Positions 1,371 to 44,773 of a stretch of 64,000 nt of DNA are shown piece by piece. The DNA is taken from positions 105,883 through 169,882 of the forward strand of contig JASDSY010000010.1 in assembly GCA_041441465.1 (NCBI GenBank). Direction: 5' to 3'. The notes beneath the pieces are model-generated. The model made no database searches, had not been told where the DNA came from, and worked only from the letters and a program-made list of their open reading frames with translations. Every line of letters begins with the position of its first letter. Position 1 is the stretch's first letter. The translations under genes were made by a program, and so were the position numbers. This DNA is from Candidatus Wallbacteria bacterium (lineage in GTDB: Bacteria; Muiribacteriota; UBA9980).

Positions 1371-2555
1371 ATGAAAAATGAGGTAATGAAGTTAATATCA
1401 AAACTCAACGAACTTGATCACAAAATGTACGGAACAGATTTTTTTCTCACATGGGAAAAAAACGACGACCAGATAAACGCTACGCTTTTAACGGCTAAAA
1501 TATTGAAATCATTATACGAAGAAAACTATAGCTGCAAGCTTTTCAAATCAGGTCTCGCCATTTCAAACTTCCGCGATAACTCGACCAGAACGAGATTTTC
1601 ATTCGCTTCTGCTTCGAACCTTTTAGGCCTTGCCGTTCAGGAATTGAACGAAAGCACATCGCAGATCGCGCACGGCGAAACGGTCCGTGAAACCGCTAAT
1701 ATGATTTCATTCCTTTCAGAAGTTATCGGTATCCGCGATGATATGTATCTCGGCGAAGGCAATAAATACATGCATGAAGTCGCTGACGCTCTCGACGACG
1801 GCTATAAAAACGGTGTATTGCACCAGCGCCCTACGATAGTCAACCTTCAGTGCGATATCGACCACCCGACACAGTCTATGGCCGACCTTGCGCACTTAAT
1901 CGATTACTACGGCGGAGTTGAAAACTTAAAAGGCAAAAAAATCGCTATGACATGGGCTTATTCGCCAAGTTACGGCAAGCCGCTTTCAGTACCGCAGGGC
2001 ATTATCGGCCTTATGACAAGATTCGGCATGGATGTTACGCTCGCTCATCCTGAAGGCTATAACCTCATACCGGACACATTGAAAGTAGCCGAAAAGAACG
2101 CTAAAAAATCAGGCGGTTCGTTCAAGCATGTAAACACAATGGAAGAAGCTTTCAAAAACGCCGATATCGTTTATCCTAAATCATGGGCGCCTTTCAGCGT
2201 TATGCAGGAACGCACAACATTATTGAAGAAAAAAGACCTCGACGGCTTAAAAAATCTCGAAAAACGCTGCCTCGAAAACAACGCTAAATATAAAAACTGG
2301 GAATGCAACGAAAAAATGATGAAACTCACCAAAGGCGGCAAAGCGCTTTATATGCACTGCCTGCCTGCCGACATTTCAGGCGTTTCAAGCAAAGAAGGCG
2401 AAGTTTCAGCTAAAGTATTCGAAAAATACAGGATTGAAACATACAAAGAAGCTGGTTACAAGCCTTTTGTAATAGCCGCAATGATAGCTCTCGCGAAAGT
2501 TAAAGACATCTCAAGAGTTCTCGGCAGCCTTCGCAAAAAAAGATTCGCCGAATAA
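1371..2555 (+). CDS. ygeW: YgeW-type (long, knotted-class) carbamoyltransferase
   Basis: 394 aa; carbamoyl-phosphate binding motif STRTR (FRDNSTRTRFSF), HPTQ and HCLP motifs; about 80 aa longer than OTC/ATC, matching the YgeW family size. Confidence 0.75.
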   Translation: MKNEVMKLISKLNELDHKMYGTDFFLTWEKNDDQINATLLTAKILKSLYEENYSCKLFKSGLAISNFRDNSTRTRFSFASASNLLGLAVQELNESTSQIAHGETVRETANMISFLSEVIGIRDDMYLGEGNKYMHEVADALDDGYKNGVLHQRPTIVNLQCDIDHPTQSMADLAHLIDYYGGVENLKGKKIAMTWAYSPSYGKPLSVPQGIIGLMTRFGMDVTLAHPEGYNLIPDTLKVAEKNAKKSGGSFKHVNTMEEAFKNADIVYPKSWAPFSVMQERTTLLKKKDLDGLKNLEKRCLENNAKYKNWECNEKMMKLTKGGKALYMHCLPADISGVSSKEGEVSAKVFEKYRIETYKEAGYKPFVIAAMIALAKVKDISRVLGSLRKKRFAE

Positions 2556-2655
2556 TTAATTATAAAAAATCAGCTTAAATTTTTAAGCGAAGTTAACATA
2601 TCATAAAGTATTTAAACTTCACTTAAAAATGAAAATAAAAATTACGGGTTTTAAA

Positions 2656-2679
2656 GGGCACGCGCTAAGCGCGTGCCCC
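2656..2679. other. perfect GC-rich hairpin (gggcacgcgc-taa-gcgcgtgccc) downstream of the carbamoyltransferase gene
   Basis: 10-bp perfect inverted repeat; no clear U-run afterwards, so terminator versus regulatory hairpin is unresolved. Confidence 0.4.
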
Positions 2680-2725
2680 TGAATATTATTAAAAGTACCA
2701 AAAAAATAAAAGGGGATGGGGATTA

Positions 2726-3940
2726 ATGGACACACAGAAAATATTACAGGAAGCCAAAAATTATGAAAAAGACCTTATAAAATTTATGAGGGATTTGATA
2801 GCAATACCTGGTGAATCATGCCAGGAAGGCCCGGTAGTCAAACGCATCGAAGAGGAAATGAAAAAAGTCGGATTCGACGAAGTTAAAATAGACAAAATGG
2901 GCAATATTATAGGCCGCATCGGTAAAGGCAAGACCAAAATAATGATGGACGCTCATATCGACACAGTCGGAATAGGCGATCGCAGCGCATGGAAAATCGA
3001 TCCTTATAAAGGCGACATGAAAGACGGCATAATTTACGGACGCGGCGCTACCGATCAGCGCGGCGGCATGGTTTCAATGGTTTACGCCGGCGCTATAATC
3101 AAAAAACTCCAACTCGAAGACGATTACACTTTATACGTAACCGGCACATGCCAGGAAGAAGACTGCGACGGTCTCCCGCTTTTACATATGATCCGCGACA
3201 CTAAAGAAGTCGTTCCTGATTTCGTTGTAATCACCGAGCCTACAAACCTCGGCGTATATCGCGGCCACCGCGGCAGAATGGAAATGAAAGTCGTAACTAA
3301 AGGCGTTTCATGCCACGGTTCCGCTCCTGACCGCGGCGTCAACGCGGTTTACAAAATGATGCCTATCATTAAAGGCATTGAAAAATTAAACGAAGGCGGC
3401 TTAAAAGACGATAAATTCCTGGGCAAAGGCACAATCACGGTATCTAAAATCGAATGCCAGACACCGTCGCTCTGCGCCGTCCCTGACGAATGCACGATCT
3501 ACATCGACCGCAGAATGACCGTAGGCGAAACCGCAGAATCGTCAGTCGCCGAAATCCAGAAAATCATCGATGACAATAAAATAAAGGACGCAAAAGTTGA
3601 AATACTTCAGTACGAGGTAAAATCATGGACAGGACTCACAGTCGGCCAGGAAAAATTCTATCCGACATGGGTATTGCCTGAGGATCATAACCTTACCAAA
3701 GCCGCAGTTAAATCAGCTGAAATAGCGCTCGGCGAAAAACCGCGCGTCGACAAATGGACATTCTCGACAAACGGCGTGGCCTCAATGGGAAGACTTAACA
3801 TCCCGACCATAGGTTTCGGCCCGGCAAACGAAATATACGCTCACTCTATAAACGACCAGGTGCCTGTCGATCATCTTGTAAAAGCAGCTGCATTTTATGC
3901 TTGCTTCCCTAAAAATCTCCTTAACGAACTTAAAAAATAA
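2726..3940 (+). CDS. ygeY: M20 family peptidase/amidohydrolase, YgeY-like
   Basis: 404 aa; metal-ligand regions MMDAHIDTVG and GRGATDQRGGM typical of M20/DapE/ArgE-type hydrolases; same size as E. coli YgeY; RBS aggggatgggga. Confidence 0.7.
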   Translation: MDTQKILQEAKNYEKDLIKFMRDLIAIPGESCQEGPVVKRIEEEMKKVGFDEVKIDKMGNIIGRIGKGKTKIMMDAHIDTVGIGDRSAWKIDPYKGDMKDGIIYGRGATDQRGGMVSMVYAGAIIKKLQLEDDYTLYVTGTCQEEDCDGLPLLHMIRDTKEVVPDFVVITEPTNLGVYRGHRGRMEMKVVTKGVSCHGSAPDRGVNAVYKMMPIIKGIEKLNEGGLKDDKFLGKGTITVSKIECQTPSLCAVPDECTIYIDRRMTVGETAESSVAEIQKIIDDNKIKDAKVEILQYEVKSWTGLTVGQEKFYPTWVLPEDHNLTKAAVKSAEIALGEKPRVDKWTFSTNGVASMGRLNIPTIGFGPANEIYAHSINDQVPVDHLVKAAAFYACFPKNLLNELKK

Positions 3941-4076
3941 ATAATATCCAAACGCTATCAATAAATTCAGGAATTCGGAAGAATATTCCGGTTCCTGAAT
4001 TTATCGGGCATAATAAAATTAATTGTAAACATTAAAACATAGTAAAATTAATTATAATAACGGAGGAAATAGTCAC

Positions 4077-5015
4077 ATGAAAAAGGCAGTAATTGCGGTA
4101 GGCGGAAATTCACTTATAAAAGATAAAAATCACCAGAGCGTTCCTGACCAGTACGCTGCGGTATGCGAAACCGTAAAACACGTTACCGGCATGATCGAAA
4201 AAGGCTATAACGTCGTCATGACGCACGGCAACGGCCCGCAGGTCGGCTTCATATTAAGGCGCTCCGAAATCTCTTCAACGGAACTTCACGAAGTTCCTCT
4301 CGATTCCTGCGGCGCCGACACCCAGGGCGCAATCGGCTATCAAATTCAGCAGGCTTTTTATAACGAATTTAAAAAACGCAACATCCAAAAAAAAGCTGCA
4401 ACCGTAGTAACTCAAGTTTTAGTTGACCGCGAAGACCCGGCGTTCAAAACTCCTACCAAACCTATCGGCTCATTCATGCAAAAAGAGGAAGCCGACAAGA
4501 AAGTAAAAGAAGAAGGCTGGAACATAAAAGAAGACGCGGGCAGGGGTTACCGCCGCGTTGTGGCATCGCCTATGCCTAAAGAAATTATTGAAATCGACGC
4601 CATAAAAAAACTTATCGATTCAGACTTCATCGTAATCGCTGTCGGCGGCGGCGGCATTCCAGTACTCAAAAAAGAAAACGGCGATTTGGTCGGCACAGCC
4701 GCAGTTATCGACAAAGATTTCGCATCAGCGCTTCTTGCGGCAAATGTTAAAGCCGATGTTTTCATGATAACAACCGGCGTCGAAAAAGTCTGCATCAACT
4801 ACAATAAGCCTGACCAGAAAACAATCGATAAAATGACAATGGCCGAAGCTGAAAAATACCTTGCAGAAGGCCAGTTCCCGGCAGGCTCGATGGGCCCAAA
4901 AATCCAGGCTGCTATTATGTTTTTGAAAAACGGGGGAGAAAAAGTAATAATCACCTCGCCTGAATTCATCGAAAAAGCGATAAACGGCGAGACTGGAACC
5001 GTTATCACAAAATAA
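4077..5015 (+). CDS. yqeA: carbamate kinase family protein
   Basis: 312 aa; N-terminal AVIAVGGNSL and VVMTHGNGPQVG, and IVIAVGGGGIP, are characteristic carbamate kinase motifs; RBS ggagg. Confidence 0.75.
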   Translation: MKKAVIAVGGNSLIKDKNHQSVPDQYAAVCETVKHVTGMIEKGYNVVMTHGNGPQVGFILRRSEISSTELHEVPLDSCGADTQGAIGYQIQQAFYNEFKKRNIQKKAATVVTQVLVDREDPAFKTPTKPIGSFMQKEEADKKVKEEGWNIKEDAGRGYRRVVASPMPKEIIEIDAIKKLIDSDFIVIAVGGGGIPVLKKENGDLVGTAAVIDKDFASALLAANVKADVFMITTGVEKVCINYNKPDQKTIDKMTMAEAEKYLAEGQFPAGSMGPKIQAAIMFLKNGGEKVIITSPEFIEKAINGETGTVITK

Positions 5016-5673: not shown

Positions 5674-6324
5674 ATGAGAAGTAAAATAGTTTTATTTTTT
5701 ATGATTTTGACGATATTAATTTCATCAATCCCGGCTAATGCAGCAAGATTGGCCGAAGATAAAGGAAAAGAAGTGAAGCTTGACGCAGGGCAGAAGAAAA
5801 AACTGAACACTTTTTTCAGTAATTTTGCCGAAACATATCTCGAATTTTTCGCTGAAGGCAAAATTAAAAATGAAGAACTGATAAGGTTTGGAATACTGCA
5901 CAATTCAATTAATAAACCGGCTAATATAAAAAAAGTTGATAATTATTACGGTGTTCTGGCTGAAAAAGACGTCGAAACCGCCGCTAAAAAATATTTCGGC
6001 GAAATAAAAATAACAAATAAGTCAATTCAGGATTATGAATATTCGAAAGGCAATTATAAAATTCCTTATGCGGACGGCGAGGCATATAATTTTTCGCAGA
6101 TAGAAAAATTAATCGATATAAGTGATAATTATTATATCGCCTATTTAAATAACTACATTGCTTCTCCAGGTTTTACAGGCGATCCGCATGCTGCAATCGA
6201 TAAATTAAAAAAAGGCGAAGACACTCCGGAATTAAAAGATAAAATAAAAGCCGTAATAAAAAAGGTTGAAGACGGCGGCCAAAGCCGTTATATCTTAATC
6301 GAATATTTAAAAAATCAACTATAA
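5674..6324 (+). CDS. hypothetical secreted protein
   Basis: 216 aa; signal-peptide-like N-terminus MRSKIVLFFMILTILISSIPANAA; strong RBS; no family recognised. Confidence 0.55.
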   Translation: MRSKIVLFFMILTILISSIPANAARLAEDKGKEVKLDAGQKKKLNTFFSNFAETYLEFFAEGKIKNEELIRFGILHNSINKPANIKKVDNYYGVLAEKDVETAAKKYFGEIKITNKSIQDYEYSKGNYKIPYADGEAYNFSQIEKLIDISDNYYIAYLNNYIASPGFTGDPHAAIDKLKKGEDTPELKDKIKAVIKKVEDGGQSRYILIEYLKNQL

Positions 6325-6436: not shown

Positions 6437-7288
6437 ATGGACGAAAATGATAATATAAACGCCAGCCAGAAGGAAATCGAAGGCCAGGAACATCAAAATT
6501 CAACACTCCGGCAAGAAGTGAAATTTTATATTCCGGAAATTACGAAAAATTGTGAACTTCCTGAAAATATAAAAATCGAGCTGGACACCTTTCTGGAAAC
6601 ATTGCTTAAATATTTATATGGCGGCTGTTTTCTTATAAGCTGTTATTTATTTTATGTAAGTAAATTCGGGCATTATACCGGACGCGGCAATTCAAGACAT
6701 TATATCCCTCCGGACCCGTCAGCTTTTCCTGACGCGCTATGGTTTATGGCCGGAGCTTTTTTATTTTTCATAATCGCATTAAACACCGATAATTATTACA
6801 TTTTAAACACCAAGCGAAAAACAATATATTATCACTTTAAATGCCTTTTCTGGAAATATATAAAACCGAGCCTGACTAACGATAAAATATTTGCAATCGC
6901 GGTAGACTGCAGGGAAAAACATCAAAAAAGCTCAAAATGGTGGGAATATGGAATATGCGCCGTTTCGAACGACGGAAAATTTACCGAATTAAGCGATTTT
7001 AAAAAAGATATTGAAAATCCGAACTGCCTTTCAGAACTGAATCACCAGGCAATGATAATGGCGATGGCGATGCAGTGCAAATTTGCCGAATGCCCTGAAA
7101 AACATTCGCTGCAAGCCGCAATGAACAATAATTCATTAGACCTGAAATATTTCGTGCCGCCGAAAGAAGAACCGCCGCCGCCGGCTCGACCTAAATATGA
7201 CTTCCTGCGGCTGATATTTACCGCTTTCCTGCTGATAACATTAGTCTCGGTAACGTTAATGGGATTAATGCTTTTACTTTGCAAATAG
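6437..7288 (+). CDS. hypothetical membrane protein, Cys-containing
   Basis: 283 aa; hydrophobic segments (CFLISCYLFYV, WFMAGAFLFFIIAL, C-terminal LIFTAFLLITLVSVTLMGLMLLL); RBS agagg; stop codon abuts the stop of the convergent radical SAM gene. Confidence 0.45.
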   Translation: MDENDNINASQKEIEGQEHQNSTLRQEVKFYIPEITKNCELPENIKIELDTFLETLLKYLYGGCFLISCYLFYVSKFGHYTGRGNSRHYIPPDPSAFPDALWFMAGAFLFFIIALNTDNYYILNTKRKTIYYHFKCLFWKYIKPSLTNDKIFAIAVDCREKHQKSSKWWEYGICAVSNDGKFTELSDFKKDIENPNCLSELNHQAMIMAMAMQCKFAECPEKHSLQAAMNNNSLDLKYFVPPKEEPPPPARPKYDFLRLIFTAFLLITLVSVTLMGLMLLLCK

Positions 7289-8365
7289 TTATTTCAGCAT
7301 ATCATACTGGCAATAAAGCAATTCACCGGTTTTTTCATCCCGAAGATGAAGACCGTTACCCTCGCACCAATCGAATACATCGCATTTAGCGCATTTTCCG
7401 GTTTTCATCCATGCGCGGTCGCGCATAACCTGAAATTTATTGTTCCAGCATTCTAAAAAATCGTCTTTATATATATTCCCCTGTATATAATCGGCGCGCA
7501 GGCTCGGACAGGCCGATATGGACCCGTCGGCCAGAACGGACCCTACATTTATGCCGGCGCGGCAGAACATATATCCTTTACGCGCGATATTTTCCATTCT
7601 TCCCAAAAAGCCGTCACAGGCATATTGAAGATCGATCTTGCCCTCGCGCCTGGTGTCGGCGATAAAGTCTATTATATACTTGAGCTGGTTCGACGTGACG
7701 CGCAAAAGGTCGTTCGTCAAAGCGCGGCCTTTCATAAATATATCGAAAAGACGCCATTTTTTTATCCCGATGCCTATCAAAAATTTTTTAATTTCATTAA
7801 GTTCGGTTATATTTTTCTGGGTAACGCATGTAATAGCTTCGCACACAATTTTGGGAAATTTAGACGAATGGGCAAGCGCGTTCGCAGCCGCATCGAATGA
7901 ACGTTCATTCTGCCGCAGCCAGTTATGGCTTTCGCGCAGTCCGTCAAGGCTTATCGAAACGGAATGCATCCCTGAATTCGCGAGCGAATCAAAACGCTCA
8001 TTCGTCAAAAGCATCGCGTTAGTAACAATTCCCCAGGGATAGCCGCGTTTAAAAAGCTCGAAACCGCATTCCTCGAGATCGCTTCGAAGCAGGGCCTCGC
8101 CGCCGGTAATGGCTATAAAAACATTATTCGGATTATACTGCTTTGAAATTATATCCGTTACTTTCAAAAAATCCTGATAAGGCATATCAGGCACCGTGCC
8201 GAGTTTCTGGCAATCGCTCCCGCAGTGACGGCAATTCAGCATACACCGCGAAGTGCATTCCCAGAATAAATAATTCAACTGATGTTTTCTAGTTTCCATC
8301 TTTTTGGCATAACGGAACATTTCAAGCGATATTTTCTTTTGAAAAGGAATATCAGTATAATTCAT
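7289..8365 (-). CDS. radical SAM enzyme with C-terminal SPASM-like Cys cluster
   Basis: 358 aa; CxxxCxxC motif (CMLNCRHC); glycine-rich ITGGEALL; C-terminal CAKCDVFDWCEGNG cluster; RBS gaggt. Confidence 0.7.
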   Translation of the reverse strand: MNYTDIPFQKKISLEMFRYAKKMETRKHQLNYLFWECTSRCMLNCRHCGSDCQKLGTVPDMPYQDFLKVTDIISKQYNPNNVFIAITGGEALLRSDLEECGFELFKRGYPWGIVTNAMLLTNERFDSLANSGMHSVSISLDGLRESHNWLRQNERSFDAAANALAHSSKFPKIVCEAITCVTQKNITELNEIKKFLIGIGIKKWRLFDIFMKGRALTNDLLRVTSNQLKYIIDFIADTRREGKIDLQYACDGFLGRMENIARKGYMFCRAGINVGSVLADGSISACPSLRADYIQGNIYKDDFLECWNNKFQVMRDRAWMKTGKCAKCDVFDWCEGNGLHLRDEKTGELLYCQYDMLK

Positions 8366-8615
8366 ATTATTAACCTCATTTTTACGGACGTGATTACAAA
8401 TATTATTTTATAAACTTTAATATATTATAAAACATCTTTTTATTTTTTTATACTCTTTTTTTGTTTTTTTATTTTTCGAACTTAATCGTAATTTAAGCAG
8501 TCAATATACTGAAAAAATTCATAAATATTTTTTCTGCCCCCGAAACTGCATATTCATTTTAAAATAATTAAAAGCCTACAATTTAAATTAAAGTTGACGC
8601 CATATATCAAATATA

Positions 8616-8644
8616 TTGACGAACATTGTCATTTTTTATATAAT
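8616..8644 (+). promoter_or_regulatory. consensus sigma70-type promoter TTGACG-N17-TATAAT for paralog 1
   Basis: -35 ttgacg 8616-8621, 17-nt spacer, -10 tataat 8639-8644; ggagg RBS at 8663-8667, ATG at 8677. Confidence 0.6.
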
Positions 8645-8676
8645 AGATGCAATTTAAAAATCTGGAGGCATAATCA

Positions 8677-9177
8677 ATGGATTTTATAAAAAAAAGAACT
8701 AAAAATATATTAATAAGCATCATTGCGTTTTTACTTGTAAGTCCGGGTTTTATCGCCGATTATTTGTTTGCGCAAAATAATTTAGTCAATGAAAAAACGG
8801 AAGAAGTAAAGGCAAATAAAATGCCGCTGCCGGAACCGCCGGTTTACGGAATGCCGCCGACGCGTTTTGATCATAACATGCCGGGCCGCAATATTTCGGT
8901 TATAAGCGCCAGGCCGAAAGTCAAAAAGAGCTTTTCAGGAATAATAGTATCCGCCGGCTCAGAAACACCTCTTCCAGGAATGATATTAGAAATACAACAG
9001 CTCAACTCCAGGACAATTACGAGTAAAACCGGAGCTTTCAAATTTCAGGAGCTTTACGCCGAAAAAGATTCGGATAAATTTATCATGACAATAACCAACT
9101 CAGAAGACAGAAGCATTTGCCGGACGATGGAAATAGAGTTAACTAAAAGCGGCAGTACTATTGAAGTTTCATTATAA
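8677..9177 (+). CDS. small secreted protein, paralog 1, with C-terminal carboxypeptidase-regulatory-like beta-sandwich motif
   Basis: 166 aa; signal peptide KNILISIIAFLLVSPGF; C-terminal GIIVSAGSETPLPGMILEI...TGAFKF pattern; ends KSGSTIEVSL. Confidence 0.6.
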   Translation: MDFIKKRTKNILISIIAFLLVSPGFIADYLFAQNNLVNEKTEEVKANKMPLPEPPVYGMPPTRFDHNMPGRNISVISARPKVKKSFSGIIVSAGSETPLPGMILEIQQLNSRTITSKTGAFKFQELYAEKDSDKFIMTITNSEDRSICRTMEIELTKSGSTIEVSL

Positions 9178-9223: not shown

Positions 9224-9252
9224 TTGACTGACACCGATAATTGTAATATAAT
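9224..9252 (+). promoter_or_regulatory. consensus sigma70-type promoter TTGACT-N17-TATAAT for paralog 2
   Basis: -35 ttgact 9224-9229, 17-nt spacer, -10 tataat 9247-9252; ggagg RBS at 9284-9288. Confidence 0.6.
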
Positions 9253-9293
9253 GATTTTTAAAACAAAGCATTATGAAAAATTCGGAGGAAATC

Positions 9294-9749
9294 ATGATAG
9301 AATTTATAAAGATAAAAGCTAAAAATATGTTAATAAGCATTATAGCGTTTTTACTTGTAAGCCCGTGTTTACTGACCGATTATTTATTCGCCGGCGATTC
9401 GGCTTTAAAGGAAAAAGTAAATATGGCAAACGAAGATATGGCAGCCACTAAATATGGCGGCCCGGCAATGAATTTTGACGAAGATATAATATTGGAAAAA
9501 CTTGTAGAATTATTCGGCGTGGTTACATCAAAGGAAACGAAAAAACCTGTCGAAGGCATTATTATAAAAATCCAGGATTCAAAAGCAAAAGCTGTAACCG
9601 GTAAAGACGGCATGTTTAAATTCCCTCCATGCCCGCCCAGATTAAAAAAAGTTACACTGGAAGTAAAAGACGCCAAAGACGAAAAACTTCTGCAGACCAA
9701 AGAAGTGGAGCTTAAAAATGCCGGCTCTACAATCGAAATTTCACTTTAA
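9294..9749 (+). CDS. small secreted protein, paralog 2 (start moved to RBS-supported ATG)
   Basis: ORF track starts at 9273, but ggagg sits 6 nt upstream of the ATG at 9294, giving MIEFIKIKAKNMLISIIAFLLVSP parallel to paralog 1; ends NAGSTIEISL. Confidence 0.6.
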   Translation: MIEFIKIKAKNMLISIIAFLLVSPCLLTDYLFAGDSALKEKVNMANEDMAATKYGGPAMNFDEDIILEKLVELFGVVTSKETKKPVEGIIIKIQDSKAKAVTGKDGMFKFPPCPPRLKKVTLEVKDAKDEKLLQTKEVELKNAGSTIEISL

Positions 9750-10002: not shown

Positions 10003-11418
10003 CTATTTCTTATTTTCTATAATGCCGTATGCCGCTTTTATAATATCATTGAGCCTGTCCGGAAATACTTTATATAGTTTTTTAGGCTCGTCGCATTTGA
10101 CATAATTAGCTTTATCGAAATCCCGCGGAATAATGAACATCGCTTCGTCTGTGCCGCCTGAAAACGTGCCAAGCCTTATTTCCATTGTCGCAGGAGAAAA
10201 TTTAGAGAGCAATTCGGCATTAGTGGTGTCGCGGTCTATAGACTGCAGCATGCAATTAGCTATAAGCTGAGTCAAATTTTCAACTTTCGCCTTATCTATT
10301 ACCGCCTCTAAAGTCGAATCGCCGACACGAGTTATTTTCCAGTCGCTATTCGTCTTTTTTACCTCGACCGATACGGTGCCGGCCGGAATAAGTCTGACGC
10401 TGTTAACTTCCGAAGCCGCAAAATCATTAGTCAACTTAGGCATAAAATCCATGGCCGATTTTTTTAATTCGGCCTTAAAATCCCTGTCAAGCATAAGGAT
10501 TTCTTTTTTATAATTGGATTTAACCGCTATGAGGTTTTCAGACGTGCTGTCACGGCCGACATTAATTACCGTCATTACCTCGGCGGTTGCGCCGGTACTG
10601 AGTTTTAATATTATTTCAGCCGATGTTTCGCTTACCAGATTATTTTTATACGAAGCATCGGTCTCGTCTATAATTTTTTTTGCGGAAGCGGCCTGTATTT
10701 TATTAATGATCTCGTTAATCATCTTAGTATCGCAGCGGCCGTTCTCCGGCGATTCCATGCTCCATATCCCGGCTTTATTCGTAAAAGAATATTTTTCTTC
10801 GGCCGTCGTGCCGGGATATGAAATTTCAAAATGCTTTATGTTTGCCGGAATAAAAGAAGCGATTTTTTTATCGCGGAATTCAAAAAGGTTTTTATTCGCG
10901 TCATTGTAAAGCCCCGACTCAACCAGAAATATATCTTTGCTTTCAGGAAATTTCACGTAGCATAATTCGCCGGACGGATTTTTGTTTCCATAACAAAAAG
11001 TAATTTCGGCGCTTTCAGCCTTCAAAGTAACCTTTATCTCATTGGTCCCAAAGCCGAAATCCGCCATGTTAGATATCTGATCGGCCGTAATTTTAGAATC
11101 GATTCTGGCGAGCTTGATTTTATTCGTCATTTCATTGACAGCGCTCTGATCTAAAAGCGCATCAAGCGGTTTTTCAAGCATCCATTCTTTCTTTTCGTTT
11201 TTCTTTGAAAAAACAATTTCAGTCAAAGCGCCGCCGGATTTTGTATAATCAGGCTTCTGGATTTTCAGATGAGTCAGTCCTTCAAAGTTAAAGTTAGCCG
11301 CCAATTGTGCTTTCTTGCTTTCCTCGGTTTCAACCGGCGCCTGCCTGAGATTATTCGCGTAGAACCCGAGCGCGATAAGAACAATAAGAGCGACAATAGT
11401 TTTTATATATTGATTCAT
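10003..11418 (-). CDS. DUF4340-like protein (GldG-associated)
   Basis: 471 aa; N-terminal membrane anchor IVALIVLIALGFYA; last gene of the ABC/GldG operon, the usual position for this family. Confidence 0.5.
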   Translation of the reverse strand: MNQYIKTIVALIVLIALGFYANNLRQAPVETEESKKAQLAANFNFEGLTHLKIQKPDYTKSGGALTEIVFSKKNEKKEWMLEKPLDALLDQSAVNEMTNKIKLARIDSKITADQISNMADFGFGTNEIKVTLKAESAEITFCYGNKNPSGELCYVKFPESKDIFLVESGLYNDANKNLFEFRDKKIASFIPANIKHFEISYPGTTAEEKYSFTNKAGIWSMESPENGRCDTKMINEIINKIQAASAKKIIDETDASYKNNLVSETSAEIILKLSTGATAEVMTVINVGRDSTSENLIAVKSNYKKEILMLDRDFKAELKKSAMDFMPKLTNDFAASEVNSVRLIPAGTVSVEVKKTNSDWKITRVGDSTLEAVIDKAKVENLTQLIANCMLQSIDRDTTNAELLSKFSPATMEIRLGTFSGGTDEAMFIIPRDFDKANYVKCDEPKKLYKVFPDRLNDIIKAAYGIIENKK

Positions 11419-11440
11419 AAAGTATCACTCCCGTAAAAAT

Positions 11441-13090
11441 TTATGACCTGTAATACCACACGGTAAATCCTGTCAATATAACGATACCAGGCACCAAGAG
11501 TATAACTATAAACCATACGTTATTGGCCGCTTTCTGATTGAAATCGAGCGTAAACGGCACCGGCGCCTTAGGCGTAACCGCTATGAGATCTTCGATATCG
11601 GCCAGGTAACTGAACATATTCAGCGCAAGATTAAAATTTCCCTGTAATCCTATAAATTCGTTACGCATAAAATTCGAAGTGCCGGCCGCAATAATGCGCA
11701 TTTCTTTTTGTTTGGAACGACGGCCGTTAGCGTCGGATACGATCGCGTTTTCACCGGTGCCTGAATGTATTTCAGCGTTAGCGACAGTTTTTGAAACCGC
11801 TGTTACGACAGTTATCGGCCCTTTTATATCGCGGTCAGAATCAAATTTCACGTTTTTATCGGTCAGATAAGTCGTATCAGCAAACGAGTCAGGGCTGGTC
11901 TGAACAAGCGCAGCCGCAGTCATGCCCGGCGGCATATTTTTAACGGAATTCACGGCCCTGGCAAGCGGATAAAAAGTAGCCATATTAAAACCTTTTACCA
12001 CAGGATGGTCACTGTTATAAATCATTCCGAGCGGCATGGTATAATCGCCGAGTCCGAGCATCTTCAATGCCGGTTTCATATCTATTATAATGTTTTTACC
12101 GGGCTCGATTCCGTATTTTGAAAGCAGCCTTTCCATGCTGGCCGAAGGCGCCTGCGGCGGGAAATTCACGTCAACTAAAAAGAGCGCATGACCGCCGTTA
12201 TCAAGATATTTAGAGATCATCGCTTCCTCAGTTTCCATAAGCTCAATCTGCGGTCCTGCAATTACGAGCGCGCTGCAATTGCCCGGCACTTCCTGGCGCT
12301 GAAGCAGGTTGAGTTTTTGCAGCTCGAAATTCTTGTTAGCCAATTCCTGCTTCATAAGGCTCATGCCGCGTTTATCATCCGAATTAATGTCGGCTTCGTT
12401 ATGCCCCTCAAGAAAATATATGACGTTTTTTTCCTTCGAAGTAGCCCTTATTATAGCGTTAGTCAATTCCTGCTCGCCGAAAAAATTCTCGAGTTTTTCC
12501 GTTTTGCCTTCATATTTAACGACAGTGATGCCGTCGCGAGTTATGTTAAATTCCTTGGCGAGAAGCGGTTTTTTGTTCATATCCACAAATTCATACTTGA
12601 ACTTCGGGTTGTTATATGAATACTGCTTCATAAGATCGGAAAAATGCCTTCTGACTTCAGGAATATCACGATAGAAAAGATAAACGTTGATATCGCTTTT
12701 AAGCCTCGCTATCGCCTTGACCGACTGCTCGGCCAGCGAATATCTTTTATTCGACGTCATATCCCACTGCTTCGTATCGCGCCCCGCAATAAAATTAAGA
12801 AGCACGACTATAGCTATTATAATAGCGCCATAAATCAACGCGTTAGTCGAATATTTAAATGAACGTGTCCTCATTTTATTAGCGATATAATTGAAATTAT
12901 AAATCGTGATACCGAGCGCCATGATAAGGCCGGCTGCAGCCAGGGCCGCCGGAACCGTTGTCGATTCAGCCATAAAATATCCGAAGAAACCTGAAAAAAT
13001 AAGCAGCGCGGTTAATATTTTCAAAGTTGCCATTAATTTAGTGTTGTTATCGCCGTTAGAGTTTTTTATTTCACGAATATCGTTATTCAT
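11441..13090 (-). CDS. GldG-like ABC transporter auxiliary component
   Basis: 549 aa; N- and C-terminal TM segments (C-terminal VWFIVILLVPGIVILTGF); sits between an ABC-2 permease and the DUF4340-like gene. Confidence 0.55.
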   Translation of the reverse strand: MNNDIREIKNSNGDNNTKLMATLKILTALLIFSGFFGYFMAESTTVPAALAAAGLIMALGITIYNFNYIANKMRTRSFKYSTNALIYGAIIIAIVVLLNFIAGRDTKQWDMTSNKRYSLAEQSVKAIARLKSDINVYLFYRDIPEVRRHFSDLMKQYSYNNPKFKYEFVDMNKKPLLAKEFNITRDGITVVKYEGKTEKLENFFGEQELTNAIIRATSKEKNVIYFLEGHNEADINSDDKRGMSLMKQELANKNFELQKLNLLQRQEVPGNCSALVIAGPQIELMETEEAMISKYLDNGGHALFLVDVNFPPQAPSASMERLLSKYGIEPGKNIIIDMKPALKMLGLGDYTMPLGMIYNSDHPVVKGFNMATFYPLARAVNSVKNMPPGMTAAALVQTSPDSFADTTYLTDKNVKFDSDRDIKGPITVVTAVSKTVANAEIHSGTGENAIVSDANGRRSKQKEMRIIAAGTSNFMRNEFIGLQGNFNLALNMFSYLADIEDLIAVTPKAPVPFTLDFNQKAANNVWFIVILLVPGIVILTGFTVWYYRS

Positions 13091-13093
13091 TTA

Positions 13094-13879
13094 TTACAGC
13101 CTCCATTTCGTCGATTCTAATGAAAGTGAGGTTAAGAAAAGCCCTATAAAGGTAAAACTTAAATAATACATCATATCTTTCGAGTCAATTACGCCTTTCG
13201 CGAATGTCTCAAAATGTTCCATAATCGAAATCGACTTTAAAAATTCGCCAAGAACGCCTTCTGCGCTATACGATGCCCAGCCTATCACCCAGAATAAAAG
13301 CAGTACGCCGAAGCCAAGGACTGCCGAAACCACCTGATTTTTGCTTAATGTAGAGGTGAAATTTCCGACTGCGGCAAAAGCCATACCTATAAGAAACAAT
13401 CCGAAGTATGACGTAAATAGCGGCCCTGTTTCGACATTTCCATATACGTATAAAATCGCCGGATAGGTAAAGGTAAGAGCCAGCATCAACGCAAAAACGC
13501 CGACCGACGCGAAAAATTTTCCAAGCACGATAGAAATATGAGAAACCGGAGAAGTGAGCAAAAGCTCGATAGTTCCGGTCTTAAACTCTTCCGAATATAA
13601 CCGCATTGTAAGAAGCGGCATTATAAGAAGTATGACGACGCTGGCGTTATATACAAGCGGCCTCAAAACGGCGTCGGCGATATTGATTTTCGATAATTGC
13701 TCCATCGCCTGCGGATTGCCGGATGTCTTCATGTAATTGACGTAATTTGCGAATGAAACAATGCCCATATAGAAAAAATAACCTGTCAGTATCAAATATA
13801 CGGCTATTATCATATAAGCGATTGGCGAAGTGAAAAAAAGCGACATTTCTTTTTTAAAAATCGACCATGTATTACGCAT
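13094..13879 (-). CDS. ABC-2 family permease (GldF-like)
   Basis: 261 aa polytopic membrane protein; overlaps the ATPase gene by 8 nt. Confidence 0.6.
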   Translation of the reverse strand: MRNTWSIFKKEMSLFFTSPIAYMIIAVYLILTGYFFYMGIVSFANYVNYMKTSGNPQAMEQLSKINIADAVLRPLVYNASVVILLIMPLLTMRLYSEEFKTGTIELLLTSPVSHISIVLGKFFASVGVFALMLALTFTYPAILYVYGNVETGPLFTSYFGLFLIGMAFAAVGNFTSTLSKNQVVSAVLGFGVLLLFWVIGWASYSAEGVLGEFLKSISIMEHFETFAKGVIDSKDMMYYLSFTFIGLFLTSLSLESTKWRL

Positions 13880-14831
13880 TTACCGATTCCTCCTTGGTTA
13901 TAAGCTTAAGGAAAATATCCTCGAGGGAAGTTTCCTGCGTGCGGAGCTCGTGTATGTTAAGCTTTATTTCCAAGAGCCTTGCTGCCGCAAGCGGAGCGAT
14001 TTCAAAATTAGCGGAAGTTTCAATCAATATTTTTCTGGCGTTTTTATGAATCTCATCGTTTATTATATTAACGGATTTTATTCCGGTGATAGGTTCGAGC
14101 GAAGTTTTGATTTGTTCACCTGTCGCCTCACCCGTTATCGTTATTTCCATACGTTCATCTTTCGAAACGGCTTTCGTAAGGTTTGCGGTAGCGTCTTCGG
14201 CAATTATCCGGCCGTGATTTATTATGACGACACGCGAGCATGTTATAGACACCTCAGGCAGAATATGTGTCGAAAGTATAACGGTATGGGCGTCCTTTAA
14301 ATTTTTAATAAGCGTCCTGACCTCGTTTATCTGGAGCGGATCGAGGCCTACCGTCGGTTCGTCAAGTATCAGAAGTTTTGGATTATGAACCAGCGCCTGC
14401 GCCAGTCCAACCCTTTGCTGATACCCTTTCGAAAGATGCCCTATCAACTTGCCGGCCACATTAGAAATATTTGTTTTTTCCATGGCAAGTTCAACAGCCT
14501 TATTAATTTCACGAACAGGAATGCCCTTAATTTCTCCGACGAATTTCAGGTACGAACGCACGCTCATCTCCGGATAGACCGGCGGTTTTTCCGGTAGATA
14601 ACCTATAAGGCGTTTGGCATTTATGGCGTCATCGTAAATATCGTGGCCGTCAACTTTGACAGTGCCGGCCGTCGCCGAAAGAAAACCGGTAATAATGCGC
14701 ATCGTAGTAGTTTTACCGGCGGCATTCGGCCCAAGAAAACCCATGATTTCACCCTGTTTGACATTAAACGTAACATTCGAAATCGCAGTGAAATCGCCAT
14801 AGTTTTTCGTAAGATTTTGAACTTCGATCAA
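13872..14831 (-). CDS. ABC transporter ATP-binding protein (GldA-like)
   Basis: 319 aa; Walker A GPNAAGKTT, ABC signature LSKGYQQR, Walker B LLILDEPTVGLD. Confidence 0.8.
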   Translation of the reverse strand: MIEVQNLTKNYGDFTAISNVTFNVKQGEIMGFLGPNAAGKTTTMRIITGFLSATAGTVKVDGHDIYDDAINAKRLIGYLPEKPPVYPEMSVRSYLKFVGEIKGIPVREINKAVELAMEKTNISNVAGKLIGHLSKGYQQRVGLAQALVHNPKLLILDEPTVGLDPLQINEVRTLIKNLKDAHTVILSTHILPEVSITCSRVVIINHGRIIAEDATANLTKAVSKDERMEITITGEATGEQIKTSLEPITGIKSVNIINDEIHKNARKILIETSANFEIAPLAAARLLEIKLNIHELRTQETSLEDIFLKLITKEESVNA

Positions 14832-43801: not shown

Positions 43802-44773
43802 ATGGAAAATTTTTTTAAATACTTAAGAATTTCAATTACCGACAAATGCAACCTGAAATGCAAGTATTGCGATACCGGCAAATATTGCAAGCTGCCGCCT
43901 GCGTCGATTCTTTCATTTGAAAACATATGCCGTATCGTCCGCTGCGCGGCCGAATGCGGTGCTGAAAAGATAAGAATAACCGGCGGCGAGCCTTTAATGC
44001 GCAATAATTTTCTTGAGTTATTTAAAATGATAAAGTCTATAAGCGGAATAAATGAACTTACATTCACAACGAACGGCATATTGCTCGACAGATGGGCCGA
44101 TAAATTATTCGATATCGGCATCCGCCGTTTTAACGTGTCGCTTGACACGCTCTGCCGTGAAAATTTTAAAAAAATTAACGGGTCCGACAATTTGGACAGA
44201 GTTCTCAAGAACCTTGAAGATTGTAAAAAAATAGGCTTCGCGCCTATTAAAATCAACACGGTATTACTGAAAGGCATAAACGACAGCGAGATTCCGGAAC
44301 TCATAAAATACGCCGCAAATAATGGTTTTTTAATAAGGTTTATAGAACTGATGGATATTTCACATTCAAAAGGCTTTTTTGAAAAACATTTTATAAGCTC
44401 CGACTGTGTTATAAAAAAATTAAAAGAATCTTACGTTATCGAAAAAATAACAAATCATGACGGCGCCCTCGAAGGCCCTGCTGTTTATTATAAAATAAAA
44501 GGCGAAGGCATCGACGGCAGGATAGGTTTTATAACGCCCGTAAGCCATCATTTCTGCAAACATTGCAACAGGCTGCGCCTTACGGTTGACGGCAAACTCA
44601 AACCGTGCCTTTTAAGAGCTGACGAAATAAATCTTAATGAGCTTTTAAATAATAATATAAGCGATAACGAGTTAAAGGAAATTTTTAAAAATACATTTAA
44701 AGACAAAAATAAAGCTTCAGGAAAACATTTATTTAACAATAATTTTAGAAATATGTCTGAAATAGGCGGTTAA
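43802..44773 (+). CDS. moaA: GTP 3',8-cyclase MoaA (molybdopterin/tungstopterin cofactor biosynthesis)
   Basis: 323 aa; radical SAM CxxxCxxC (CNLKCKYC) and C-terminal Cys triad context. Confidence 0.75.
   Translation: MENFFKYLRISITDKCNLKCKYCDTGKYCKLPPASILSFENICRIVRCAAECGAEKIRITGGEPLMRNNFLELFKMIKSISGINELTFTTNGILLDRWADKLFDIGIRRFNVSLDTLCRENFKKINGSDNLDRVLKNLEDCKKIGFAPIKINTVLLKGINDSEIPELIKYAANNGFLIRFIELMDISHSKGFFEKHFISSDCVIKKLKESYVIEKITNHDGALEGPAVYYKIKGEGIDGRIGFITPVSHHFCKHCNRLRLTVDGKLKPCLLRADEINLNELLNNNISDNELKEIFKNTFKDKNKASGKHLFNNNFRNMSEIGG

What the first reader, a model, noticed from the sequence alone, without database searches (positions are those of the whole stretch)
6437..8365. Radical SAM/SPASM enzyme placed tail-to-tail with zero spacing against a Cys-containing membrane protein
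Seen: a 358-aa radical SAM protein (CMLNCRHC plus a C-terminal Cys cluster) is convergent with a 283-aa membrane protein; the two stop codons are adjacent (TAG then TTA at 7286-7291), leaving no room for a terminator. The radical SAM gene is divergent from two secreted paralogs. No sulfatase, PQQ or mycofactocin partner genes are visible. Inference: SPASM-type enzymes commonly mature peptides or proteins. Candidate substrates here would be the adjacent membrane protein or the secreted paralogs, but nothing in the sequence ties them together beyond proximity. The convergent overlap implies 3'-end transcriptional interference or antisense coupling.
Basis: partly seen in the sequence, partly recalled or inferred. 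Interest (0 to 1): 0.45.

Follow-up and report, generated by a model that had tools for sequence, protein, structure and literature searches.

The report
Radical SAM enzyme with tagged secreted partners
The radical SAM gene belongs to a catalogued but unstudied enzyme family whose conserved partners are the two neighbouring secreted paralogs, which carry the family's short Tyr-Gly tag, not the membrane protein it abuts tail-to-tail.

Summary
A 358-aa radical SAM/SPASM gene (7289-8365, minus strand) and a 283-aa membrane-protein gene (6437-7288, plus strand) converge with abutting stop codons. Two paralogous secreted proteins lie divergently upstream.

The enzyme is a full-length member of NCBIfam TIGR04133, the "rSAM/lipoprotein system" (501.8 bits, cutoff 425). 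This family is large, has no known function, and I found no paper on it.

In about 50 related loci the enzyme gene almost always sits beside 1-5 small exported proteins. Their architectures differ, but they share one short motif, Y-G-x-P-x-x-x-[Y/F]. In the six-frame translation of the 64-kb window this motif occurs four times. The two hits inside real genes are in the two paralogs (YGMPPTRF, YGGPAMNF), in a disordered linker before a transthyretin-like beta-sandwich.

The divergent paralog/enzyme arrangement recurs in related lineages. Homologs of the membrane protein accompany the enzyme in only two lineages and occur without it elsewhere. The tail-to-tail junction is therefore probably incidental.

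Most likely the cytoplasmic enzyme modifies the Tyr-Gly motif before export. This is inferred, and the chemistry is unknown.

This is a divergent Wallbacteria member of a known, uncharacterised system, and it yields a directly testable substrate motif.

The parts
7289..8365 (-). Radical SAM/SPASM enzyme, TIGR04133 family ('rSAM/lipoprotein system'). It is cytoplasmic, with no signal peptide or TM segment, and has no N-terminal RRE.
   Evidence: NCBIfam TIGR04133 scores 501.8 bits (cutoff 425) over residues 9-357. Pfam gives Radical_SAM and SPASM. Cys invariant across 15 family members: C37, C41, C45, C48, C52, C180, C250, C268, C286, C325, C328, C334, C352. No hydrophobic segment was found.
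8677..9177 (+). Paralog 1 (166 aa): N-terminal signal peptide or anchor, a linker carrying the motif YGMPPTRF (nt 8845-8868), then a transthyretin-like beta-sandwich. Probable substrate.
   Evidence: ORF. Paralogy. Motif hit. Weak CarbopepD_reg_2 match. Its family matches the TIGR04134-positive set by hhalign (95.9%, E 5e-9).
9273..9749 (+). Paralog 2 (158 aa; annotated as 151 aa in the public MAG): the same architecture, with motif YGGPAMNF (nt 9453-9476). Probable substrate.
   Evidence: Motif. Sub-threshold TIGR04134 hit (E 0.034). In the AF2 model residues 40-76 are disordered and hold the motif, and residues 78-158 form a beta-sandwich. Foldseek matches transthyretin-like domains. A 100% identical protein is named as from 'Candidatus Wallbacteria bacterium'.
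8366..8676 (.). 311-bp divergent intergenic region between the enzyme gene and paralog 1. It holds a strong promoter-like site for paralog 1 (8616-8644) and a weaker one for the enzyme gene (8431-8402).
   Evidence: Consensus scan: TTGACG-17-TATAAT (11/12) on the + strand and a 9/12 site on the - strand. These are consensus matches only.
9224..9252 (+). Promoter-like site (TTGACT-17-TATAAT, 11/12) ahead of paralog 2.
   Evidence: Consensus match only.
6437..7288 (+). 283-aa membrane protein ('mem283'): two TM helices, a PH-like beta domain, and a C-terminal TM helix. It is the adjacent gene. It is probably not a core part of the system.
7286..7291 (.). Abutting stop codons: TAG of mem283 and TTA (TAA of the enzyme gene on the minus strand).
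   Evidence: No terminator-like hairpin at the junction.

Best explanation
The 358-aa protein is a member of the TIGR04133 radical SAM/SPASM family, the enzyme of the catalogued but uncharacterised 'rSAM/lipoprotein system'. Its functional partners in this window are the two divergently transcribed paralogs (8677-9177 and 9273-9749), not the abutting membrane protein.

Across the family, the enzyme gene travels with small exported proteins of heterogeneous architecture:
- about 150-aa TIGR04134 lipoproteins;
- coiled lipoproteins;
- about 70-aa mini-lipoproteins;
- 85-103-aa single-TM peptides;
- T9SS cargo proteins.

Their only common feature is the motif Y-G-x-P-x-x-x-[Y/F].

Inferred mechanism: the cytoplasmic Fe-S enzyme lacks an RRE, so it recognises this short linear motif directly in the unfolded pre-protein. 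It cleaves SAM to a 5'-deoxyadenosyl radical, abstracts a hydrogen at or next to the invariant Tyr-Gly pair, and installs a modification before Sec export. The modified tag then ends up on envelope or surface proteins.

What is shown: family membership, the co-occurrence, the motif and its position in a disordered linker. What is inferred: that the motif is the substrate site, and that modification happens before export. What is unknown: the chemistry.

The tail-to-tail abutment with mem283 is a lineage-specific gene-order accident of a compact genome.
For: Family identity:
- TIGR04133 scores 501.8 bits against a cutoff of 425, full length. The next family scores 110 bits, far below its own cutoff.
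- 5107 protein clusters match at E<=1e-60. Many are named 'radical SAM enzyme (rSAM/lipoprotein system)' or TIGR04133 and come from Bacteroidetes, Chitinivibrionales and Spirochaetes.

Partner proteins:
- Upstream small proteins in Bacteroidales loci pass the TIGR04134 cutoff (44-63 bits against 39.8).
- The window paralog family matches that set by hhalign (95.9%, E 5e-9).

Motif enrichment:
- The strict motif gives 83 hits in 169 kb of same-strand sequence within 3 kb upstream of, or inside, the enzyme gene, against 8 hits in 643 kb elsewhere.
- 41 of 45 loci have at least one hit. The four without have a truncated upstream flank or a broken enzyme gene.
- In a test anchored only on YG, upstream small proteins against other proteins give: YG density 8.4 against 2.5 per 1000 aa; Pro at +3 in 54% against 9%; Pro at +3 plus an aromatic at +6/+7 in 32% against 3.7%.
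- In the six-frame translation of the window the motif occurs four times. Two hits are in the paralogs. The other two lie in open stretches of 8 and 31 codons.

Arrangement:
- The divergent paralog/enzyme arrangement recurs in L054/L055 (HKYGGPTSNY) and L058 (HKYGGPGMDF), where the enzyme is 70-76% identical.
- The co-directional arrangement occurs in L001, L002, L024, L030 and L051.
- The motif is also present in a Spirochaete locus and a Chitinivibrionales locus.

Structure:
- In the AF2 model the motif lies in a low-confidence linker between the N-terminal helix and the beta-sandwich.
- The enzyme has no signal peptide or TM segment, and its radical SAM domain starts at residue 36, so there is no RRE.
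Against: - No experiment or mass-spectrometry data exist. No paper on the family was found in the held library.
- The window paralogs fail the TIGR04134 cutoff (14.1 bits against 39.8; paralog 1 gives no hit at all). By eye they lack a canonical lipobox.
- Co-occurrence does not prove an enzyme-substrate relation. The motif could serve another shared purpose.
- The aromatic at +7 in the TIGR04134-type proteins may partly reflect a second YG copy or the first strand of the domain.
- In L003 the mem283 homolog sits 29 nt downstream of the enzyme gene and is co-directional. An accessory role in that sub-lineage therefore cannot be excluded.
Confidence: 0.68

Rival explanations
1. The abutting membrane protein (mem283) is a substrate or dedicated accessory of the radical SAM enzyme, for example a membrane receptor or escort for modified proteins. 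The tail-to-tail arrangement would then couple their expression.
For: A mem283 homolog lies directly downstream of the enzyme gene in L003, co-directional with a 29-nt gap and operon-like. The window arrangement is reproduced in an independent metagenome contig, L028. mem283 has two family-invariant Cys residues (C214, C219).
Against: A 76-sequence family profile finds mem283 homologs in only 2 lineages out of about 50 enzyme loci. Other mem283-family genes lie beside a Peptidase_C39 protein, a STAS protein and acetate kinase, with no radical SAM gene within 570 nt upstream or 4 kb downstream. mem283 lacks the family motif: its 'WWEYG' is WWEYK/WIEYR in homologs. Orientation differs between the two lineages. 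The gene downstream of the enzyme is otherwise variable: a methyltransferase, a DUF4064-like TM protein, or unrelated convergent genes.
Confidence: 0.1
2. The enzyme acts on a non-protein substrate, such as a cofactor, tetrapyrrole or lipid intermediate, like its next-best HMM relatives AhbD/NirJ/HpnH. The YG-motif proteins would be linked for another reason, for example by binding or using the product in the envelope.
For: The next-best NCBIfam hits are TIGR04053, heme b synthase AhbD, NirJ-type enzymes and HpnH. There is no RRE. The nearest solved structure is a small-molecule enzyme, cytosylglucuronate decarboxylase 7vob, at E 3e-10.
Against: All those hits are far below their cutoffs (62-110 bits against 225-650). 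No tetrapyrrole or hopanoid genes are among the neighbours. It is hard to explain without direct recognition why an 8-residue motif should be the only feature shared by otherwise unrelated neighbouring proteins, including peptides of about 20 mature residues.
Confidence: 0.12
3. The zero-spacing convergent junction is a regulatory device: transcriptional interference or antisense RNA coupling the enzyme gene to mem283.
For: Spacing is 0 nt and no intrinsic terminator is detected at the junction, so read-through into the opposite gene is likely. It is the tightest convergent pair in the window.
Against: The arrangement is not conserved: the genes are co-directional in L003 and the pairing is absent elsewhere. 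Tight or overlapping convergent junctions with unrelated genes follow this enzyme gene in L004, L006, L009, L013 and L060, as expected for compact genomes. No structured element was found (z-scores -1.95 and +0.39) and there is no Rfam match.
Confidence: 0.07

Closest known systems
TIGR04133 / TIGR04134 'rSAM/lipoprotein system' (NCBIfam/TIGRFAMs, both of kind hypoth_equivalog)
   Same: The enzyme passes the TIGR04133 cutoff over its full length. It sits next to small exported proteins that have a CarboxypepD_reg/transthyretin-like domain homologous to TIGR04134. A YG motif precedes that domain, as in TIGR04134-positive proteins.
   Different: The window partners fall below the TIGR04134 cutoff. 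By eye they have no canonical lipobox. They are transcribed divergently rather than upstream on the same strand. The host is a Candidatus Wallbacteria MAG rather than Bacteroidota. The system's function is unknown, so this is membership in a catalogue entry, not in a characterised pathway.
Anaerobic sulfatase-maturating enzyme (anSME); comparison from established knowledge
   Same: It is a radical SAM/SPASM enzyme without an RRE, acting in the cytoplasm on a short linear motif (C/S-x-P/A-x-R) inside full-length proteins destined for export. One enzyme serves several substrates. This is the best analogy for how the system probably works.
   Different: The window enzyme is not an anSME by HMM: the top hit is TIGR04133 and no anSME model is among the best 25. 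The motif is different, built on Tyr-Gly. There is no sulfatase nearby. The fourth Cys of CX2CX5CX3C is Gly338 here. By analogy with anSME's ligand assignment (from memory), this would leave one auxiliary cluster with three Cys ligands; that is inference.
DAG-RiPPs: MNIO-modified RiPP-lipoprotein hybrids (PMC13056109, 2026)
   Same: Short precursors use a Sec or lipoprotein signal peptide in place of a classical leader. A cytoplasmic enzyme modifies them, and they are then exported. The roughly 70-aa proteins next to Bacteroidales TIGR04133 genes, which look like lipoproteins by eye (for example ...C-RTRPVVKYGGPPAGYKQMEKNN), fit this logic.
   Different: The enzyme class differs (radical SAM/SPASM rather than MNIO). 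That paper mined only MNIO neighbourhoods. The window's own partners are 150-aa domain proteins without an obvious lipobox.
PqqE, MftC and QhpD: SPASM enzymes acting on Tyr-containing peptides or small protein subunits (from established knowledge)
   Same: The SPASM architecture is shared. A conserved Tyr lies at the presumed reaction site, and QhpD likewise acts on a small protein rather than a short peptide.
   Different: HMM scores are far below cutoff (PqqE 58.5 against 381; mycofactocin maturase 88.2 against 265). No PqqD/RRE partner or mycofactocin genes are present. The motif differs.

Membership tests
TIGR04133 (rSAM_w_lipo radical SAM/SPASM) | HMM score at or above the curated cutoff over the full length | tested here: met
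   501.8 bits against a cutoff of 425; residues 9-357 align to profile positions 2-349 of 350.
TIGR04133 (rSAM_w_lipo radical SAM/SPASM) | CX3CX2C radical SAM cluster motif | tested here: met
   C41-x3-C45-x2-C48, invariant in 15 family members. Pfam Radical_SAM scores 58.5 bits.
TIGR04133 (rSAM_w_lipo radical SAM/SPASM) | C-terminal SPASM (not twitch) Cys-rich domain | tested here: met
   Pfam SPASM scores 28.3 bits against 21.5. Both halves are present: C268-x12-G-x4-C286 and C325-x2-C328-x5-C334, plus C250 and C352. The fourth Cys of the second half is Gly338 in all members.
TIGR04133 (rSAM_w_lipo radical SAM/SPASM) | Genomic association with small exported partner proteins (TIGR04134-type) | tested here: met
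   Two adjacent paralogs are homologous to TIGR04134-positive proteins (hhalign 95.9%). The adjacency is conserved in related loci in both orientations.
TIGR04134 (lipo_with_rSAM putative lipoprotein), for the two paralogs | HMM score at or above the curated cutoff | tested here: not met
   Paralog 2 scores 14.1 bits, E 0.034, against a cutoff of 39.8. Paralog 1 gives no hit. They are distant relatives, not members by the curated rule.
TIGR04134 (lipo_with_rSAM putative lipoprotein), for the two paralogs | Lipoprotein signal peptide with a lipobox Cys | tested here: inconclusive
   By eye, paralog 1 has no Cys near the end of its hydrophobic segment, and paralog 2 has an atypical 'VSPC'. One N-terminal hydrophobic segment is present in each. 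No SignalP-type tool was available.
TIGR04134 (lipo_with_rSAM putative lipoprotein), for the two paralogs | Small transthyretin/CarboxypepD_reg-like beta-sandwich preceded by a YG motif | tested here: met
   Weak Pfam CarbopepD_reg_2 / CarboxypepD_reg matches, the AF2 model, Foldseek matches to transthyretin-like domains, and YG invariant in both alignments.
Anaerobic sulfatase maturase (anSME) | Membership by HMM, and a sulfatase partner with a C/S-x-P-x-R motif | tested here: not met
   No anSME model is among the 25 best NCBIfam hits. No sulfatase is among the 10 flanking window proteins scanned. The rest of the window was not scanned.
PqqE / mycofactocin maturase MftC | HMM score at or above the cutoff, and partner genes | tested here: not met
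   PqqE 58.5 bits against 381.35; mycofactocin maturase 88.2 against 265. No such partner genes are nearby.
Leader-dependent RiPP maturases (sacti-/ranthipeptide type) | N-terminal RRE (PqqD-like) domain for leader binding | tested here: not met
   The radical SAM domain starts at residue 36, and the TIGR04133 profile covers residues 9-357 with no extra domain. About 33 residues is too short for an RRE; that size limit is my own knowledge.
DAG-RiPPs (PMC13056109) | Lipobox-bearing short precursor modified by an MNIO enzyme | tested here: not met
   The enzyme is radical SAM, not MNIO. The window partners are 158-166 aa without a clear lipobox. Only the export-after-modification logic is analogous.

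The most novel reading that the evidence does not exclude
TIGR04133 enzymes install a chemically new radical-SAM modification on a portable Tyr-Gly tag (Y-G-x-P-x-x-x-Y/F). The tag has been grafted onto many unrelated exported proteins and mini-lipopeptides in Bacteroidota, Spirochaetota, Chitinivibrionales and Wallbacteria. This would be a protein-tag counterpart of anSME and a radical-SAM counterpart of DAG-RiPPs. The window's paralogs would be non-lipidated substrates, and mem283 would possibly be a lineage-specific accessory.
Probability: 0.3. Interest if true: 0.7.

Novelty: new member of a known kind. Interest (0 to 1): 0.42.

Why it matters
The TIGR04133 family is large: more than 5000 protein clusters at 90% identity, many from gut, rumen and digester Bacteroidales. 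It has only an in-silico name, and no paper on it was found in the held library.

This work shows that its variable partner proteins share one 8-residue Tyr-Gly motif. An anonymous 'radical SAM next to lipoproteins' entry thereby becomes a concrete biochemical experiment: enzyme plus a 20-residue peptide, read out by mass spectrometry.

If the motif is modified, that would add a radical-SAM post-translational modification of envelope and surface proteins in abundant anaerobes.

For this window, the practical lesson is that the eye-catching tail-to-tail junction is not the meaningful association. The divergent paralogs are.

Tried and rejected
- **mem283 as partner.** Word-indexed and exhaustive HMM searches, context look-ups and a 76-sequence profile over all fetched loci found co-occurrence in only two lineages. 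Rejected as a core component.
- **Terminator or structured RNA at the junction.** None was found.
- **Literature.** Searches for TIGR04133, TIGR04134, family names and 'radical SAM + lipoprotein' combinations found no description of the system. The one TIGR04134 mention is in a T9SS review, which cites it as the accession for type B C-terminal domains; that looks like a slip (from memory, TIGR04131 is the type B model), and it says nothing about this system. The Haft and Basu 2011 paper on SPASM systems was not held. I therefore cannot say whether the motif was noted there.
- **Solved structures.** There is no close relative; the best is E 3e-10.
- **The afdb50 fold library** was unavailable.
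- **Reading the motif as a 3-residue cyclophane (triceptide) site.** I consider this unlikely because position +2 is often Gly (KYGGP), which has no beta-carbon. This is reasoning from my own knowledge, not a test.
- **Reading the motif as the Bacteroidetes lipoprotein surface-export signal.** Rejected, because the motif also occurs at C-termini, in non-lipoproteins and outside Bacteroidota.
Full report
**1. Observation**

The ORF list and the raw sequence confirm the anatomy.
- ORF 6437..7288 (+) encodes 283 aa and ends in TAG at 7286-7288.
- ORF 7289..8365 (-) encodes 358 aa. Its TAA stop reads TTA at 7289-7291 on the + strand. The two stops abut with zero spacing and no overlap.
- Both genes have GAGG-type ribosome-binding sites (read).
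- Two further ORFs, 8677..9177 and 9273..9749 (+), are divergent from the enzyme gene. They are true paralogs (34% identity, E 1e-29).
- The consensus scan finds no terminator at the junction. Folding both strands across it gives unremarkable energies (z-scores -1.95 and +0.39). Rfam finds nothing in the window.

**2. What the enzyme is**

NCBIfam places the 358-aa protein in TIGR04133, 'rSAM_w_lipo', at 501.8 bits against a cutoff of 425 over its full length. The next family scores 110 bits against a cutoff of 395. PqqE, the mycofactocin maturase, and the AhbD/NirJ models are all far below their cutoffs, and no anSME model is among the 25 best hits.

Pfam finds Radical_SAM (36-196) and SPASM (268-329). 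It is therefore a SPASM enzyme, not a twitch enzyme, and there is no room for an N-terminal RRE.

An alignment of 15 family members shows these invariant Cys residues:
- C41-x3-C45-x2-C48, the radical SAM cluster motif;
- C250, C268-x12-G-x4-C286, C325-x2-C328-x5-C334 and C352, the SPASM region;
- C37, C52 and C180.

The fourth Cys of the canonical CX2CX5CX3C is Gly338 in every member. By analogy with anSME's ligand assignment (my own knowledge), one auxiliary cluster would have only three Cys ligands. That is inference.

The protein has no hydrophobic segment, so it is cytoplasmic. No close solved structure exists; the best match is E 3e-10.

The family is large, with 5107 clusters at E<=1e-60. 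Sources name members 'radical SAM enzyme (rSAM/lipoprotein system)' or 'TIGR04133 family', from Bacteroidetes, Chitinivibrionales and Spirochaetes MAGs. A protein 100% identical to paralog 2 is named as from 'Candidatus Wallbacteria bacterium'. This identifies the window's source.

**3. The conserved partners**

I fetched 24 genome loci and 26 metagenome loci holding relatives of the enzyme, plus seven more by exact-protein look-up.

In almost every locus the enzyme gene is preceded on the same strand by one to five small exported proteins. In Bacteroidales several of these pass the TIGR04134 'radical SAM-associated putative lipoprotein' cutoff (44-63 bits against 39.8).

The window's paralog 2 gives only a sub-threshold TIGR04134 hit (14.1 bits, E 0.034). 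However, a profile of the window-type paralogs matches a profile of TIGR04134-positive proteins (hhalign probability 95.9%, E 5e-9).

The AF2 model of paralog 2 has three parts:
- an N-terminal helix, residues 4-39;
- a low-confidence linker, residues 40-76;
- a beta-sandwich, residues 78-158, with pLDDT 70-88.

Foldseek matches the sandwich to transthyretin-like and carboxypeptidase-D regulatory domains.

**4. The shared motif**

Reading the upstream proteins showed that they are architecturally unrelated:
- 150-aa TIGR04134 proteins;
- 120-130-aa lipoproteins with 'DSIAKADS' repeats;
- about 70-aa proteins that by eye are mini-lipoproteins, whose mature part would be about 22 residues;
- 85-103-aa single-TM peptides;
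- 260-280-aa proteins with a T9SS C-terminal sorting domain.

All of them carry Y-G-x-P-x-x-x-[Y/F], often as P-x-x-[K/E]-Y-G-[V/I/A]-P-x-N-x-Y.

The enrichment is strong.
- The strict pattern occurs 83 times in 169 kb of same-strand sequence from 3 kb upstream through the enzyme gene, against 8 times in 643 kb elsewhere, about 40-fold.
- 41 of 45 loci have at least one hit. The four without have 21-523 nt of upstream sequence (L018, L028, L029) or a frameshifted enzyme gene (L022).
- A test anchored only on the dipeptide YG avoids circularity. YG density is 8.4 per 1000 residues in upstream small proteins against 2.5 in other proteins. Pro at +3 follows 54% of YG against 9%. Pro at +3 together with an aromatic at +6/+7 follows 32% against 3.7%.
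- In the whole six-frame translation of the 64-kb window the strict motif occurs four times. Two hits are YGMPPTRF in paralog 1 and YGGPAMNF in paralog 2. The other two lie in open stretches of 8 and 31 codons.

In both paralogs the motif sits in the disordered linker between the signal peptide or anchor and the beta-sandwich. Neither mem283 nor the 216-aa secreted protein at 5674-6324 has the motif.

**5. Orientation**

The window's divergent layout looked at first like an exception. It recurs, however.
- In L054/L055 (enzyme 70% identical) a 151-aa paralog homolog (38% identical to paralog 2, E 1e-26, 'HKYGGPTSNY') is divergent from the enzyme gene across 118 nt.
- In L058 (76% identical) a 145-aa homolog ('HKYGGPGMDF') is likewise divergent.

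Other close relatives have the co-directional layout: L001, L002, L024, L030 and L051.

L002 shares the window's DUF4340 and GldG-like ABC-auxiliary genes on the far side. The enzyme gene has therefore been rearranged relative to the paralogs while staying adjacent to them. Adjacency that survives rearrangement is good evidence for a functional link.

The motif-plus-enzyme pairing also holds in a Spirochaete locus (two 150-aa lipoproteins, 'AEYGTPHASY') and a Chitinivibrionales locus (a 276-aa protein, 'VMYGPCLASF', with a faint T9SS-tail match).

**6. The membrane protein**

mem283 is a real, conserved protein.
- The word-indexed search found three clusters. The exhaustive profile search found 345 representatives at E<=1e-3.
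- It has no Pfam or NCBIfam family, and neither do ten distant relatives.

A 76-sequence family profile finds homologs next to the enzyme only in the window, in L028 (a 99%-identical contig from the same organism) and in L003. In L003 the gene lies 29 nt downstream and is co-directional.

Two other family members lie upstream of a stand-alone Peptidase_C39 protein, a STAS protein and acetate kinase. No radical SAM gene is within 570 nt upstream or about 4 kb downstream.

The gene downstream of the enzyme is otherwise variable. It is a class I methyltransferase in L029, L054 and L058, a DUF4064-like TM protein in L001, and unrelated convergent genes elsewhere. Some of those convergent genes are as tightly packed as here: 1 nt in L004, and a 25-nt overlap in L060.

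I conclude that the tail-to-tail abutment is a local gene-order feature, not a conserved coupling. A lineage-specific accessory role, as the L003 operon hints, cannot be excluded. I give it about 10%.

**7. How it most likely works**

Shown:
- family membership;
- conserved adjacency to motif-bearing exported proteins;
- the motif's position in a flexible segment;
- the cytoplasmic location of the enzyme and the absence of an RRE.

Inferred: the enzyme binds the short Tyr-Gly motif directly on the unfolded pre-protein. It generates a 5'-deoxyadenosyl radical, abstracts a hydrogen at or beside the invariant Tyr-Gly, and installs a modification before Sec export.

This is the logic of anSME, which converts a Cys or Ser in a short C/S-x-P-x-R motif of sulfatases before export (established knowledge). 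It is also the logic of the recently described DAG-RiPPs, in which a signal peptide replaces the classical leader (PMC13056109).

The chemistry cannot be deduced. Only Tyr and Gly are invariant, position +2 is free, and Pro at +3 and an aromatic at +7 are preferred. This points to Tyr (ring or beta-carbon) or the Gly alpha-carbon as the reaction centre, possibly with a link to the +7 aromatic.

**8. Comparison and novelty**

The locus is a member of the TIGR04133 enzyme family. Its partners are distant relatives of TIGR04134 that fail the curated cutoff and by eye lack a clear lipobox.

The system is catalogued (model kind 'hypoth_equivalog'). I found no paper describing it or its motif in the held library. 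The 2011 paper on SPASM systems was not available.

I therefore file the window feature as a new, divergent member of a known but uncharacterised kind.

The useful result is the substrate motif, which makes the family directly testable.

**9. Scores**

| Claim | Confidence |
|---|---|
| The enzyme is TIGR04133 | about 0.97 |
| The paralogs are its functional partners | about 0.85 |
| The YG motif is the modification site | about 0.6 |
| Overall explanation | 0.68 |
| Interest | 0.42 |

Noticed in passing
L010 4503-7083; L015, L020, L045 and L047 likewise: Paludibacteraceae and rumen loci carry two tandem copies of the radical SAM gene. Each copy is preceded by its own motif carrier: a 260-aa T9SS-tail protein with 'LYGCPYAHY', and a 92-108-aa protein that looks like a mini-lipoprotein with 'CLYGVPSSEF'. 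This suggests enzyme-substrate pairs duplicating together.
   Followed up: partly
L029 1128-2324; L054 5098-5937; L058 1698-2894: In some Wallbacteria-like relatives a 279-aa class I SAM methyltransferase follows the radical SAM gene directly. In L029 and L058 a 103-aa single-TM peptide ending '...KYGPPPVPF...' comes next. This could be a second tailoring step on the same motif.
   Followed up: partly
L006 5760-5978, L033-L036 4760-4978, L004 2620-2835, L031 1216-1419, L032 4774-4974: Proteins of about 70 aa, by eye mini-lipoproteins, lie immediately upstream of the enzyme gene or overlap its start. Their predicted mature part is only about 22 residues (C-RTRPVVKYGGPPAGYKQMEKNN). They look like RiPP-style lipopeptide precursors.
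   Followed up: partly
L005-L017 and similar, e.g. L006 5414-5800: These are 120-132-aa proteins with an N-terminal hydrophobic segment ending 'SRC' or 'TRC', a central 'DSIAKADS'-type repeat, and two YG motifs at the extreme C-terminus (TKYGIPMNPHPIAEYGVPHNSY). They match no NCBIfam family.
   Followed up: partly
L022 6127-7019: The MAG that holds L003 carries a second copy of the radical SAM gene that is split or frameshifted into 74-aa and 226-aa ORFs. It has no motif carrier upstream and is probably a pseudogene.
   Followed up: no
L025 102-2141; L026 125-2049: mem283-family genes elsewhere are followed co-directionally by a stand-alone 341-377-aa Peptidase_C39 protein, then a STAS protein and acetate kinase. 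This hints that the mem283 family has its own, different functional context.
   Followed up: partly
L001 1009-4578, L002 195-2789, L024 1659-5166, L053 44-1081, L054 1-743, L056 194-3862: Large ankyrin-repeat proteins recur next to the paralog/enzyme module in the Wallbacteria-like clade. They are absent from the window's own locus.
   Followed up: no
window 10003-14831 (-): An operon of an ABC ATPase, an ABC-2 permease, a GldG-like ABC_transp_aux protein and a DUF4340 protein lies next to the paralogs. It is syntenic with L002 (4923-8044).
   Followed up: partly
window 1371-5015 (+): A cluster encodes a carbamoyltransferase-like protein, an M20 peptidase and an amino-acid (carbamate-type) kinase. 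It resembles a carbamoyl-phosphate-yielding catabolic pathway.
   Followed up: no
window 43802-44773 (+): A second radical SAM protein is present in the window. It is MoaA-like (Radical_SAM plus Mob_synth_C) and unrelated to the finding.
   Followed up: no
window 5674-6324 (+): A 216-aa protein with an N-terminal signal-like segment lies just upstream of mem283. It matches no family in Pfam or NCBIfam and has no YG motif.
   Followed up: partly
L003 8198-9649: Two genes downstream of the L003 enzyme-mem283 pair lies a protein that looks like a lipoprotein by eye and combines a CarboxypepD_reg domain with a GH64 beta-1,3-glucanase domain. The strict-motif scan of L003 found no YG motif in it.
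   Followed up: no
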